DNA of 64,000 bases, from NCBI RefSeq assembly GCF_006345805.1, contig NC_043002.1, positions 6,758,001-6,822,000 on the forward strand, written 5' to 3'. This stretch comes from Octopus sinensis (Eukaryota). Positions 1,625-46,185 of this stretch are shown here, one piece after another; the first letter of the stretch is position 1; each line of letters starts with the position of its first letter. The notes beneath the pieces are model-generated. The model ran no database searches. It was given only the letters and a program-made list of their open reading frames with translations, and was not told the DNA's origin. A program made the translations under genes and the position numbers.

Positions 1625-2365
1625 ATTTTGTTACTTGTTTCAATCATTAGACTGCGGCCATGCTGGAGCTACGCCCTGAAGGGTTTTACTTGAACAAATC
1701 GGCCCCAGGACTTATTCTTTGTAAGCCTACGACTTATTCTATCGGTATCTTTTGCCGAACCGATAAGTTAGGAGGACGAAAACAGACCAACATCGGCTGT
1801 CAAGCGATGATGGGGGGAACAAACACAGACAGAAGCACACATCAGGCATGGCTGTGTGGTAGGAAGCTTGCTTTCCAACCATATGGTTCTAGGTTCAGTC
1901 CTATGCATGGCACTTTGGGCAAGTGTCAACCAAAGCCTTGTGAGTGGATTTGGTAGATGGAAACTGCAAGAAGCCCATCGCATATATATGTATATATTTG
2001 TGTGTCTGCGTTTGTCCACAACCATCGCTTAACAACCGATACTGGTGTGTTTACCACCCCGTCACTTAGCGGTTCAGCAAAAGAAAGCGATAGAATAAGT
2101 ACTAGGTTACAGAGAAAAAGTCATGGGGTCAACTTGCTCGACTAAAGGTGGCGCTCCAATGAGTTAAACAAGTAAGAGAATATAAGAAGATATATATATA
2201 TACGACGGTCTTCTTTCAGCTTCCGTCTACCAATTCCACTCGGACTTTGGTCGGCCCGAGGATATAGTAGAAGATACTAAACTGAGGCTTCACGCAGTAG
2301 GACTGAACCCTGAAACATGTGGCTTGGAAGCATGCTGCTTACCACACAGCCACGCCTGCGCCTAT
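1625..2365. mobile_element. Nested SINE family B: a minus-strand copy (3' half 1625-1830, 5' half 2200-2365) interrupted by a plus-strand copy (~1845-2175)
   Basis: Matches the ~400-bp family also seen at 50412, 54618, 58731 and 62055 (GGCGCAGGAGTGGCTGTGTGGTAAG...CACCTTGGGCAAGTGTC...GGAAACTGAAAGAAGCCCGTCG...GACTGAAACAAGTAAAAG). Confidence 0.85.
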
Positions 2366-2394
2366 GTGTCCCTATTTTCTTTAAGATAGAAAGT

Positions 2395-3570
2395 TGTGAT
2401 TTTAAAAATATTTGACTGCTATATCTAGCAGATCGAACGACTACCTTTAGAATGCCTACTCTTTGTGATTTTAAAAATATTTGACTGCTATGTCTAGCAG
2501 ATCGAACGACTACCTTTAGAATACCTACTCTTTGTGATTTTAAAAATATTTGACTGCTATGTCTAGCAGATCGAACGACTACCTTTAGAATACCTACTCT
2601 TTGTGATTTTAAAAATATTTGACTGCTATGTCTAGCAGATCGAACGACTACCTTTAGAATGCCTACTCTTTGTGATTTTAAAAATATTTGACTGCTATAT
2701 CTAGCAGATCGAACGACTACTTTTAGAATATCTACCCTTTGTGATTTTAAAAATATTTGACTGCTATATCTAGCAGATCGAACGACTACCTTTAGAATAC
2801 CTACCCTTTGTGATTTTAAAAATATTTGACTGCTATGTCTAGCAGATCGAACGACTACCTTTGGAATACCTACTCTTTGTGATTCTAAAAATATTTGACT
2901 GCTATGTCTAGCAGATCGAACGACTACCTTTAGAATACCCACTCTTTGTGATTTTAAAAATATTTGACTGCTATATCTAGCAGATCGAACGACTACCTTT
3001 AGAATACCCACTTTTTGTGATTTTAAAAATATTTGACTGCTATATCTAGCAGATCGAACGACTACTTTTAGAATACCTACTCTTTGTGATTTTAAAAGTA
3101 TTTGACTGCTATATCTAGCAGATCGAACGACTACCTTTAGAATACCCACTCTTTGTGATTTTAAAAATATTTGACTGCTATATCTAGCAGATCGAACGAC
3201 TACCTTTAGAATACCCACTCTTTGTGATTTTAAAAGTATTTGACTGCTATATCTAGCAGATTGAACGACTACCTTTAGAATACCCACTTTTTGTGATTTT
3301 AAAAATATTTGACTGCTATATCTAGCAGATCGAACGACTACCTTTAGAATACCCACTCTTTGTGATTTTAAAAGTATTTGACTGCTATATCTAGCAGATT
3401 GAACGACTACCTTTAGAATACCTACTCTTTGTGATTTTAAAAGTATTTGACTGCTATATCTAGCAGATCGAACGACTACCTTTAGAATACTTACCCTTTG
3501 TGATTTTAAAAATATTTGACTGCTATGTCTAGCAGATCGAACGATTACCTTTGGAATACCTACTCTTTGT
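2395..3570. repeat. Tandem minisatellite, 69-bp unit, about 17 copies
   Basis: Unit TGTGATTTTAAAAATATTTGACTGCTATATCTAGCAGATCGAACGACTACCTTTAGAATACCTACTCTT; tgtgat recurs at 2395 and 2464, and the ORF track shows 23-aa periodicity. Confidence 0.97.
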
Positions 3571-4145
3571 TGTTATTATTGTTGACTTTTGTTCCGCAGC
3601 TGCTTCCCTTGTTGTTATGTTGCTTACGTTATGTATGGACATGCATAGCTGGACTCGTCTTTATTTCACACACGTTTATTACTTCTCTGGCGTCACAGTA
3701 TAAAGTTGATAATGAAGTGCAAACATACTTAATGTGGCGAACACGACAACTTTAATAAGCAAAGATGACTACTAAAAATCAAAAACTAATAACAAAATTA
3801 CGTCTGTGCCAGCGTGTGTAAATGTGCGTGCGAATGTGTGTGTGTATGCGCATGTGCGTGAGGTGTGCGTGTGTGCCTGTGCGTGTGTTCATACATACAT
3901 GCACACACATATCCACATTAATGAGTTGAGAAGATAGTTGGGGATGACAGTAAAGTCTGATCACGAATATGGCGGATAGTGTATAAGAGAGCAACTTTTC
4001 CTATATAATTTTGGAAGTGAAGGATCTATCCAGAAACAAAAGTCGTACGCTTAGTGAGACCAATTAAGTGAGGGTAGGTGGGGGGGGGTCGAATAAAATT
4101 TAGGGTGGTGTTTCTTGTAGAGCAGCTGTTGTTATTGCTAATGCT

Positions 4146-13042: not shown

Positions 13043-13080
13043 GCTTTTACGTTTCGAGCAAAGCTCTTCATCAGAGGAAA
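13043..13080 (-). ncRNA. Degenerate hammerhead-like motif in a small (TA)n-adjacent repeat (12931-13110)
   Basis: Minus strand reads CTGATGA A GAGC TTT GCTC GAAA CG TA AAAG; stem I pairs poorly; related copy at 43953-43994. Confidence 0.45.
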
Positions 13081-14552: not shown

Positions 14553-15802
14553 TTAGGTATTCTGACGTGAAATGTCGCATTTGAAAAAAGGAAACATTAA
14601 AATTGTTTTTTAAATTTTATAATATTTATTTATTTAATGAAAATATGATCCTTGTTCATTTATGACTTCCATCCAACGTTCCTCTAAGACATATATTCCA
14701 TCTTCAATGAATTTGTCATCTTTTACACTGATTAACTGTTCGAATGCTTCAATTACCTCTTCTTTATTTAAGGATGTTTTATTGCGTATAGCAAGCTCGT
14801 AGTGTTTAAATATGTGATAAGCAGTAGGAGAGATAAGGGGGATATGCCAAAATTTCATAATTCAGGCTTTGCAACTTGTGGACCGTAGCTTGAGAAGTGT
14901 GAGGCCGGGCATTATAATGAAGCAAAACTGGGCCATTTCTATTCACTAATCTGGGGTACTTCTTTTTCTAATTTTTCATGCATACAATCAATTTCCTGAC
15001 AATAGAATGTTGCTGTTACAGTTTTTCCTTGTTGCAAAAATGAATAATGAATAACCCCGTTTGTTGACCACAATACAGTGACCATCAACCTTTTAGGGTA
15101 CGATGTTGGCTTTGGGTTATGTTTTGGGGACTCTCCTGCATCTAACCACTGTCCTGTCTTCCTGCTGTTATCAAAGAGTACCCATTTCTCACCACACGTA
15201 ATGAGTCGATACAAAAATGCTTCTCTTTCCAATCGAGAAATCAACACGGAACGTAAGGCGTCTGTTTCTTTGAATCTCATTAAGTTGATGGAGGAAAAAA
15301 CCTATCCATCTTTTTGACTTTTCCAATTTTCTTCAAATGCCGAGAGTTGCGGGAGATGTCTGGATCTCTGATCCGATTTTTCGGATCGTTGTTCTCGGAT
15401 TTCGTTTAACCAAAGCATTCAATTCATCATGCCGAATAACTGATTTTGGTCTCCCTCTGGGTTCATTTTTAAGGGTTTCATTTCCTGAACGAAATCTTTG
15501 GAACCATCTCTGAACAGTTCTAATATCAACAGAATCGTTGCCAAAAGTCTGCTTGATGTTTCGTAGAGCTTCAGTGGCCGAGTGACCCAACTTGTATTCG
15601 TAGAAGAAAATCACTCGGTATTGTTCGGTTGTCAACATTGTCTTAAGAACTGTGGGTAGCAATTTTGAATAATAGTATTGTCTAGAAAGAAAACAAGAGT
15701 TAAGAGTAAACACAAGCATATAGATAGAAACTCATTAAAAATCCATTTATAGATGACTCATAAGAAACCCATTTAAAATACATTTCATGTGAGACAACCT
15801 AA
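14553..15802 (-). mobile_element. Full-length (~1.25 kb) defective mariner transposon
   Basis: Imperfect TIRs TTAGGTATTCTGACGTGAAATGT and (reverse complement) TTAGGTTGTCTCACATGAAATGT, with a TA TSD at 14551-14552 and 15803-15804; contains transposase remnants. Confidence 0.92.
14634..15638 (-). pseudogene. Mariner (D,D34D) transposase pseudogene, Hsmar1/cecropia-like, frameshifted
   Basis: HTH YEYKLGHSATEALRNIKQTFG..RTVQRWFQRFRSG; ITCGEKWVLFDN; LMVTVLWSTNGVIHYSFL; LLHYNARPH; SPTAYHIF; split over several frames. Confidence 0.92.
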
Positions 15803-43882: not shown

Positions 43883-44285
43883 GGGAGAGTTTACCTAAGA
43901 CAGGTGGTGTACAAAAACAAATGTATTAGTATAACGCTCAGGAATAGAAAAAGTCTTTTACATTTCGAGCCTACGCTCTTCTACGGAAAGGGACACAGAA
44001 AAAACAAGGAGAGAAAAAAAGGAAAGACAAAAAGGAGAGAATATATATATATATGCATCTATGTATGTATGTATGTATGCATGTATGTATGTATGTATGT
44101 ATGTATGTATGTATGTATGTATGTATGTATGTATGTATGTATGTATGTATGTATGTATGTATGTATGTGCGTATGTATGTATGTATGTATGTATGTATGT
44201 ATGTATGTATGTATGTATGTATGTATGTATGTATGTATGTATATATGTATGTATTATATCTATATCTATCCATATACATATATAG
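43690..44285. repeat. (TA)n and (TATG)n microsatellites with a ~160-bp insert (43880-44040) related to 12931-13110
   Basis: Direct reading; the insert carries degenerate GAA GAGC GTAG GCTC GAAA TG TA on the minus strand. Confidence 0.85.
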
Positions 44286-44413
44286 TGAGAGAGAGAGTAG
44301 TTGTATACTATCAACTTAACGCGACAGTCCCATGAAAGGAATCACACCACTGATATTTAGCCCTAGGAAGCTGCAACGCTTCCTGTCGACCTTGGCACAT
44401 TTCCTGTGTCCTT

Positions 44414-44550
44414 ATGTTTACAAGGGGTAGATAAGCACCCCCACCCAGCTAAACCTGCAACCAGAGATTAGTTTCTGAGTCTTTGCTCGTCATCAGTTTG
44501 GAGTAGCATGGCCTGCTAGTTGGAGATGCCTATCTAGCCCTTGTAAACAT
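44414..44550 (-). ncRNA. Hammerhead ribozyme (core 44461-44501) at the tip of a 36-bp RNA stem
   Basis: Minus strand reads CCAAA CTGATGA c GAG caaaga CTC a GAAA CTAA TC TCTGG. The flanks pair over 36 positions with 4 G.U wobbles and 2 mismatches. Confidence 0.7.
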
Positions 44551-44555
44551 ATAAG

Positions 44556-44623
<68 letters not shown>

Positions 44624-46185
44624 ATATTTGTAATGCTATGGACGTGGGCACTGCTATTCCTCTCGTAACTAATTCATACTTTACGCTAGCAGTTTTCGTT
44701 CCTCAAATGAGGAGTCACCAAAACTAAGTCGTTGTGCCTCAGATTTTTAACTTTACCCTTCAAAGCTTTACAAATCTTCAAAGTTTTACAAAGCTTTACT
44801 AGCCTTCATATGTTAAGGCTTGTAACAGATGTTTGAAAAAGACGTGCGAGTAACGATTTTGTTATAGACAAGTATTATTCTTGAAATAAAGTTAACGATA
44901 ATTTGCTACATTTTTCCCTAAATGTTTATCTTTAAAAGCATTTCTCTTTAAATCTCTGCGAAGTATGCAAATACGTCTTTCATTTATTCTTCAGTGTATC
45001 GCAAAACCAAAAAGTGTGTGGACCATTCCCGTTTTAAGGTCATAAAAATGTCGACATAGATAACGTAGCGCTATACACATCCTTCCTGTAGAAAAAAAAA
45101 GAAAGGAAAAGAAACCCCGTAACGCCGTCGTTTACAGGTTTGGTTAGAAAAGCAGCAACTCATAAAGTATTTAGGTGTTATTATGATGCAGAGTTCACGG
45201 CCCGAAGTATCAAACTCCCATTTTTCCTACTGTATACGAGCTTACACAAACTCATGGACTTCACCGTATAATTTTTTTCGGCGCTGAAAGTCAGTCACTA
45301 GTTTCCTTTTCAGGATTGTCATAAGTATAATAGTTATATATTTCGTTATGACTTTTGCGTGAAGAATAAATGTATAGCTAAGTGTGAACTAACATCACGT
45401 AATGAACTAAATTTAATGTTTTTAATCAATTAAAAGTTTCACTAACAAGTGTTTATGTTTGATGATAATTCTTGCCGGGAAATGTAAGGGAAACAACTGT
45501 GAAATCCAAATTGGTTAATAATTGTATAGTTGTATCCAGCGGGGGATTATCAACTACAGTAAACAAGCCATATTTTTTTTTCGGTCTTTAAACGGGCGCC
45601 CTATTGAGCCAGCTTGCTGCGACAGACTCTTAAATGTATTTTTTTTTATCGAAAAATTATATTTCCATGACGTAGACGGTTATTGACAGCAGGTATCAAG
45701 TTTCTATATTAAATGATATTGATGATTTTAAAAATTTCACTCTAAGCCACAGCTGTTCCTGGAAATTATCCTTCTTTGTTATGTTGTTAACTAGCTGAAG
45801 TAACTCTATCATTCAAACTCTCGTGAGTTTTAGTTAACGTGTTAAGGGTGGGTCTGTGTGGCAATTGCTCAGCTAGAAATAGCAACCACATATCCCTTAA
45901 GGCACATCATATCGTTTTAAATTGACAGCACATAAGAATGTGCAGTCCTACATGTGTTATTTATAATCGAAAGATTTGACGTAATTGGATTTGTTCCTAG
46001 GTGTTCCTATCTATGTTGGCCTAAGCAACAATTAAAGGAAGTCACCAAAGGGATTTGTTCCTTCTTTCATCTTTTGTTGCGAGGTCATCAAAACTGATGG
46101 AGAATTCATAAATTTATACCTGAAATCTCTAACACAATGGGTTGAACTTTTACATGGTATGAGTGAGTATAAAATACTTTTGTTG

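What the first reader, a model, noticed from the sequence alone, without database searches (positions are those of the whole stretch)
44414..44550. Hammerhead at the tip of a strand-asymmetric RNA rod (retrozyme-like)
On the minus strand ATGTTTACAAGGGCTAGATAGGCATCTCCAACTAGC pairs with GCTGGGTGGGGGTGCTTATCTACCCCTTGTAAACAT: 30 Watson-Crick pairs, 4 G.U and 2 mismatches. The four wobbles work only on the strand that carries the CUGAUGA/GAAA/UC core. That points to selection on RNA structure rather than a DNA palindrome. This copy has point defects in stems I-III and ends at a (TA)n tract.
Basis: partly seen in the sequence, partly recalled or inferred. Interest (0 to 1): 0.75.

Follow-up and report, generated by a model that had tools for sequence, protein, structure and literature searches.

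The report
Penelope-spread hammerhead retrozyme, worn copy
This is a worn, partial copy of a 351-base non-coding repeat with hundreds of copies in this genome; it carries a hammerhead RNA motif predicted to cut itself when two copies pair, and its insertions bear the marks of Penelope-type retrotransposons, which likely spread it, so it is a new member of a known kind of RNA parasite (a retrozyme).

Summary
The rod and hammerhead motif are real (30 Watson-Crick, 4 G.U, 2 mismatches; z -7.5 versus -4.8 on the other strand). They are the inside of a 266-base, 5'-truncated copy of a 351-base non-coding unit with at least 330-406 copies. It is not a MITE: the inverted repeat is internal; arms end at two fixed points about 54 bases apart (the Penelope 'tail'); 81 of 186 loci are head-to-head; 14 of 34 have 8-14 base target duplications. 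The hammerhead is type I with a palindromic stem III; modelled tandem units fold into a double hammerhead. Four sister families (three compared, 48-55% identical) keep rod, core and a palindrome with different letters, which is the real evidence for RNA-level selection; four wobbles alone are not significant (p 0.125). This copy has private defects in stems I and III; the C.A at stem II is family-wide. Cleavage, expression, circles and the partner enzyme are not shown; no per-copy A-to-I signature. The scan found the same kind of element before on other DNA of this genome. Verdict: new member of a known kind (non-LTR retrozyme).

The parts
44294..44559 (-). 5'-truncated single copy of the 351-base unit (unit positions 84-349), 17 differences in 266 bases from the family majority
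44515..44550 (-). 5' arm of the rod (unit 93-128)
44414..44449 (-). 3' arm of the rod (unit 194-229); private C>A at 44428
44502..44514 (-). bulged extension of stem I, 5' side, with a UAC bulge (predicted contact with loop II)
   Evidence: tertiary role inferred
44497..44501 (-). hammerhead stem I, 5' strand (family CCAGA; this copy has G>A at 44498)
44490..44496 (-). catalytic core CUGAUGA
44476..44489 (-). stem II (3 bp, 6-base loop) with a family-wide C.A apposition at its base (mostly U-A in the older subfamily)
44472..44475 (-). core GAAA
44467..44472 (-). palindromic stem III (family ACUAGU; broken here by G>A at 44468)
44465..44466 (-). predicted cleavage site, after C at 44466
   Evidence: hammerhead rule applied; not assayed
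44450..44465 (-). stem I 3' strand (44465-44461) and 3' side of its extension
44294..44300 (-). 3' end at the first of the family's two fixed end points (E1), likely a reverse-transcription start
44560..44627 (.). (TA)n tract at the truncated 5' side (target site)
44041..44293 (.). CT/TA/TACA microsatellite after the 3' end (target site)

Best explanation
This is a decayed, 5'-truncated copy of a 351-base non-coding repeat with a type I hammerhead motif, a non-LTR retrozyme that was likely pasted around the genome by the enzyme of a Penelope-like retrotransposon. Shown: unit length, copy number, short tandem arrays, two fixed 3' ends about 54 bases apart, head-to-head arms from one subfamily, long target duplications, microsatellite targets, conserved core and palindrome. 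Predicted: in a tandem transcript the rod arms swap partners, the palindromes of two units pair, both hammerheads form and cut; the same arms then hold the monomer's ends together for ligation into a circle, in which a lone 6-base stem III cannot close, so the circle is stable. Inferred: a Penelope RT/GIY-YIG protein nicks AT-rich DNA on both strands, starts copying at the two internal sites and reads across the cut site, which needs a circle or an uncut multimer. This copy is likely dead: under one unit long, one hammerhead, stems I and III damaged.
For: Period 351; 330 and 406 exact motif hits, controls 0. 136 of 295 arms end at unit 341-10 and 97 at 41-70; 81 of 186 loci two-armed, one end of each kind in 48 of the 52 with both ends classed. 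Arms share subfamily alleles 383 of 457 (84%) versus 56+-3% shuffled; microsatellite after 110 of 211 ends versus 12%. Non-simple 8-14 base duplications in 14 of 34 versus 0.19 shuffled; CUGA-GA 20 changes in 944 versus 39 expected, P 6e-4. Palindrome ACUAGU 108 and ACAUGU 7 of 134; covarying rod pairs 99-223, 103-219, 111-211; G.U 527 versus A.C 161 cells; double hammerhead is the MFE of the majority-base dimer. Palindromes pair in the MFE of 5 of 6 natural family pairs; longest stop-free frame 52 codons. Sister families with other palindromes and compensated stems. RT+GIY-YIG elements present. Matches tail and two-start mechanism in PMC11167929 and PMC8557442.
Against: No cleavage, expression or circle shown. 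No Rfam hammerhead match. No autonomous partner sharing the unit among 46 GIY-YIG loci. Arrays are short (at most 3 cores). In aged natural pairs the fully open double hammerhead lies 7.5-17 kcal/mol above the MFE. C.A is common at 111-211 (19 of 134) and A.C at 103-219 (25), so pairing is not strict; covariation counts cells of related copies, not events. Family D shows no strand asymmetry by z (-6.08 versus -6.15). L033's two turns agree at only 10 of 29 polymorphic sites, not one circle copied twice. In the Anolis element the hammerhead is dispensable for insertion in vitro (PMC11167929), and 8 of 9 Xenopus dimers did not cleave (bioRxiv 10.64898/2026.07.22.740005).
Confidence: 0.8

Rival explanations
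1. The copies are only truncated terminal repeats (pLTRs) of an autonomous Penelope-like element, not a self-standing retrozyme; the template is an uncut read-through transcript.
For: Tail, inverted arms and hammerhead are all pLTR features (PMC8557442, PMC11167929). Most arms are shorter than one unit. 50 of 98 arms chosen without regard to the hammerhead cross the cut site, as uncut RNA would also give.
Against: The unit is circularly permuted and head-to-tail with itself up to 2.6 turns with no ORF between; I saw no shared extension beyond the unit in the loci read (not tested systematically); no match in 46 GIY-YIG loci; sister families form longer pure arrays.
Confidence: 0.1
2. A retrozyme by descent whose hammerhead no longer mattered for spread: uncut multimers were copied and the rod serves protein binding, stability or export.
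For: C.A replaces a U-A pair at the base of stem II in the younger subfamilies; no clean pile-up of arm starts at the cut site; hammerhead mutants still insert in vitro (PMC11167929).
Against: Core diverges half as fast as background; palindrome kept through letter changes in five families; the C.A recurs in families B and E, so it is a kept feature.
Confidence: 0.07
3. An ordinary MITE or DNA palindrome with a chance hammerhead-like loop.
For: Long inverted repeat near (TA)n; both strands fold better than shuffles.
Against: The inverted repeat is internal (unit 93-229 of 351); ends do not coincide with it; 5' ends are scattered and 3' ends fixed; long duplications; tandem units; conserved core.
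Confidence: 0.01
4. The strand-asymmetric wobbles are A-to-I edits of the RNA written back into DNA, not selection.
For: Shared polymorphisms in the rod arms are mostly A/G on the hammerhead strand (about 8 sites versus 3 C/T).
Against: Rare changes show no A>G excess in the rod (27 of 1767 versus T>C 35 of 2705, p 0.52); G at the stem II A.C site in 1 of 147 rows; two wobbles are nearly invariant across subfamilies.
Confidence: 0.05

Closest known systems
Metazoan non-LTR retrozymes (coral, mussel 350-390 bp, axolotl 330/350 bp; PMC7229834, parts 2-4 of 6 read; vertebrate survey bioRxiv 10.64898/2026.07.22.740005, parts 1-3 of 5 read)
   Same: Non-coding unit of about 350 bases, one type I hammerhead per unit, tandem copies, GC below 50%, long target duplications, highly self-paired predicted circle, weak palindromic stem III needing a dimer, mismatch at the base of stem II (U.U in axolotl HHR_Amex2).
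   Different: Mostly sub-unit arms and short arrays; hammerhead at the tip of a 36-bp rod; two-armed insertions with two fixed ends; cleavage and circles not shown here.
Endonuclease-bearing Penelope-like elements (Poseidon PAc, PMC11167929, parts 1-2 of 4 read; PMC8557442, passages; PMC4209133, parts 1-2 of 4 read)
   Same: Hammerhead upstream of two internal 3' end points, one-sided tail, inverted 5'-truncated partner, AT-rich and microsatellite targets.
   Different: No ORF; tail about 54 bases rather than 30-40; hammerhead has an extended, bulged stem I rather than the minimal form; no sequence-related autonomous element found.
Plant LTR retrozymes and viroid-like rods (as described in PMC7229834)
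   Same: Rod-like self-pairing around a hammerhead.
   Different: Type I not type III; no LTR structure or 4-bp duplication; genomic repeat, no sign of an infectious RNA.

Membership tests
Type I hammerhead ribozyme | CUGANGA, GAAA and UH core in type I order | tested here: met
   108 of 134 pieces intact; core conserved beyond background; no Rfam model match
Type I hammerhead ribozyme | Stems I, II and III able to form | tested here: met
   Family: 5 bp, 3 bp plus C.A, palindrome for a dimer; compensated in sister families. Window copy: stem I 4 of 5 pairs, palindrome broken
Type I hammerhead ribozyme | Self-cleavage | not testable with these tools
   Indirect footprint inconclusive: 6 arms start one base after the predicted site, 4 of them with ambiguous joints by eye
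Non-LTR retrozyme | 150-450 base non-coding unit in head-to-tail copies with a hammerhead in each | tested here: met
   351-base period; 2-3 cores in L033, L038, L039, L054, L055; longest stop-free frame 52 codons. The window copy itself is under one unit
Non-LTR retrozyme | GC under 50%, target duplications longer than 4 bp, no LTRs | tested here: met
   8-14 base duplications in 14 of 34 versus 0.19; AT-rich unit; no tRNA in 4 loci; PBS/PPT not searched
Non-LTR retrozyme | Highly self-paired monomer | tested here: met
   Natural monomer as a circle -117 versus -103 kcal/mol antisense, 68% paired; no shuffle control for the circle
Non-LTR retrozyme | Expressed as linear and circular RNA | not testable with these tools
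   Only assembled contigs available, none on record as RNA
Penelope-like insertion | Two fixed 3' ends (tail), inverted 5'-truncated partner, AT-rich targets | tested here: met
Autonomous Penelope-like element | RT plus GIY-YIG ORF flanked by the repeat | tested here: not met
   No ORF in arrays; unit absent from 46 GIY-YIG loci of 5029 first-look candidates, so a partner is not excluded
MITE | Terminal inverted repeats defining both ends, uniform length | tested here: not met
   Inverted repeat internal, 5' ends scattered

The most novel reading that the evidence does not exclude
The rod is a strand-swap switch: closed on itself it leaves the ribozyme silent, in a tandem transcript it swaps arms to build the double hammerhead, and after cutting it clamps the ends for ligation; a dimeric Penelope enzyme then copies that one circle from two fixed starts at both broken DNA ends. 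At least five sister families that changed their palindrome (ACUAGU/ACAUGU, ACUGCAGU, ACGCGU, ACUCGAGU, ACCCGGGU) would each pair best with their own kind, like a self-recognition code, and the conserved C.A at stem II would tune the cutting rate.
Probability: 0.3. Interest if true: 0.6.

Novelty: new member of a known kind. Interest (0 to 1): 0.3.

Why it matters
Retrozymes are known and their mobilisation by Penelope-like elements is proposed but not shown. This family adds genomic footprints for that step (two fixed ends, one subfamily per insertion, long duplications, copying across the cut site) and a natural series of compensated hammerheads for testing dimer cleavage. I found no cephalopod retrozyme in print in five searches (listings seen, supplements and Repbase/Dfam not seen), but the class and its parts are described, the window copy is likely a dead fragment, and younger sister families are better experimental material.

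Tried and rejected
Rfam scans: no hammerhead match; only microsatellite and generic hairpin hits. Autonomous partner: none by BLAST or profile in 46 GIY-YIG loci; the four strong profile hits were read for three and are separate sister-family insertions in (TA)n; L253 not read. Per-copy A-to-I signature: absent. Pile-up of arm starts at the cut site: 4 of 56 at risk versus 0.95 expected in three positions (P 0.016), but most joints have microhomology, so not claimed. Expression: no RNA holder listed; contigs of four coded runs hold the repeat but cannot show strand, level or circles. Metagenome scan: 0 hits. tRNA head: none. Two folds of L296 were of the non-rod part of family B by my coordinate slip (z about 0). 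Six of 140 aligned pieces (other families or misaligned) were dropped before the counts. Loci were chosen by BLAST score or exact motif, so array lengths and two-arm fractions are not unbiased. Gene context of the window copy was not examined.

Full report
Observation. The arms pair as described: 30 Watson-Crick, 4 G.U, 2 mismatches on the minus strand, 30 plus 6 non-pairs on the plus strand. Minus folds at -64.6 kcal/mol (z -7.52), plus at -51.8 (z -4.82). The core lies at 44496-44466. Rfam gave no hammerhead match here or in intact copies, so the assignment rests on core, stems and comparison.

What it belongs to. The stretch is part of a repeat: 2178-2991 first-look candidates in G000, and 330 and 406 exact hits of two motifs with reversed controls at 0; about a thousand arms is my inference. 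The unit is 351 bases and circularly permuted. The window copy covers unit 84-349 (44559-44294) with 17 differences in 266 bases, one hammerhead only, in microsatellites on both sides. The host looks octopus-like; this is inferred and also worded so in earlier scan notes.

Insertion anatomy. In 186 unique loci with 295 arms, 136 arms end at unit 341-10 and 97 at 41-70, while 5' ends are spread over the unit; 81 loci have two arms head to head, and 48 of the 52 with both ends classed have one end of each kind (29 had an unclassed end). In 74 arm pairs, subfamily alleles agree at 383 of 457 sites against 56+-3% for shuffled pairs, while rare variants are shared at only 29 of 608 sites; 110 of 211 ends are followed by a simple repeat against 12% background. 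Of 34 strict two-armed loci, 14 have non-simple 8-14 base flanking duplications against 0.19 shuffled. So each two-armed locus is one event from one subfamily template. This is the tail and inverted-partner signature of Penelope-like elements (PMC8557442, passages), where the tail lies between two internal reverse-transcription starts and both DNA strands are cut and extended (PMC11167929, parts 1-2 of 4). A MITE is excluded because the inverted repeat is internal.

The hammerhead. Family stem I is CCAGA/UCUGG with a bulged extension, stem II has 3 pairs, and stem III is the palindrome ACUAGU (108 of 134) or ACAUGU (7). CUGA-GA shows 20 changes in 944 against 39 expected, and 2 of 142 control windows are as low. 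The base of stem II is C.A in 90 and U-A in 25 of 134 rows; U-A is the majority in the most diverged subfamily. A mismatch there is described for an axolotl ribozyme (PMC7229834). The window copy has private changes in stem I, stem III and the rod. Palindromic stem III implies dimer action (PMC4209133). Same-strand cores 351 apart occur in L033, L038 (three), L054 and L055, and 336 apart in L039. The double hammerhead is the minimum-energy fold of a majority-base dimer; in natural pairs the palindromes pair in 5 of 6 folds, though the fully open form is 7.5-17 kcal/mol higher; it is the MFE in 4 of 4 family C pairs and 1.5-3.8 higher in 4 family B pairs. In an excised monomer the rod brings stem I together next to the two ends. 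That the UAC bulge contacts loop II as in canonical type I ribozymes is recalled, not tested.

Is the rod selected as RNA? Four wobbles alone give p 0.125. In the family, two are nearly fixed (U.G 116 and 124 of 134) and two alternate with Watson-Crick pairs; pairs 99-223, 103-219 and 111-211 covary (p 3e-8, 1e-5, 5e-8), G.U cells outnumber A.C 527 to 161, but these count related copies and A.C is common at three positions (6 of 140 pieces dropped). Stronger is that sister families B (352 bases) and C (362 bases, U3-A8 core), 48-55% identical to this unit, keep the rod, stems and a palindrome with other letters; D and E were read from single loci. The hammerhead strand folds lower in 121 of 134, 19 of 19 and 19 of 22 copies, with z -9.2/-4.8, -5.7/-2.6 and -7.9/-6.2 for the majority models; family D is lower in energy but equal in z. 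Rare changes show no A>G excess, so per-copy editing is not supported; the A/G bias among shared variants remains unpolarised.

Template. Of 98 arms picked by a 3' motif, 50 cross the predicted cut site, 4 stop one base after it and 44 are shorter. A cut linear monomer cannot be the main template; a circle or an uncut multimer can. Successive turns agree at 297 of 367 polymorphic sites, but L033 at only 10 of 29. The data do not separate circle from multimer.

Partner and expression. The genome holds RT plus GIY-YIG elements with open frames of about 780 codons, some with their own palindromic type I hammerhead motifs, but none of 46 loci shares the unit. Expression could not be tested (see Tried and rejected).

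Comparison and verdict. It meets every testable feature of metazoan non-LTR retrozymes (PMC7229834, parts 2-4 of 6) and fits their proposed Penelope origin (bioRxiv 10.64898/2026.07.22.740005, parts 1-3 of 5). PMC6155905 was seen as passages only. Supplements were not read and may list related families. Earlier scan notes describe the same kind of element in this genome; a look-up by sequence found none for this stretch. New member of a known kind; interest 0.3.

Noticed in passing
window 13052-13074 (-): A second, unrelated minimal hammerhead-like motif (CUGAUGA, extra A, short stem II, GAAA, ACGU palindrome) in another common repeat; similar motifs seen in L023, L136, L217.
   Followed up: partly
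window 43959-43986 (-): Apparently a relative of that repeat with the core replaced by CCGUAGA while stem II and GAAA remain; decayed or non-canonical.
   Followed up: no
L292-L316 (array L299): Sister family B: 352-base unit, five-unit array, 8-base palindrome, same C.A at stem II, two 3' ends.
   Followed up: partly
L239:960-1365, L317-L336: Sister family C: 362-base unit, U3-A8 core, young (94-97% identical), arrays of about nine units, ends 60 bases apart; the best material for bench tests.
   Followed up: partly
L250:7452-7804; L087:168-442: Sister families D and E with palindromes ACUCGAGU and ACCCGGGU, inserted in (TA)n beside Penelope elements.
   Followed up: partly
L246:1174-4874, L249: Young, abundant Penelope-like element with an upstream 479-codon frame before the 781-codon RT/GIY-YIG frame, a 1.16-kb direct repeat and a U3-A8 hammerhead-like motif.
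   Followed up: partly
L229:3769-5051: Three near-identical copies of one two-armed insertion about 560 bases apart, probably a later local tandem duplication.
   Followed up: no
window 14939-15731 (-): Broken frames resembling a Tc1/mariner transposase (judged by eye).
   Followed up: no
window 2277-3572 (-): Tandem repeat with a 66-base unit giving a 431-codon repetitive open frame.
   Followed up: no
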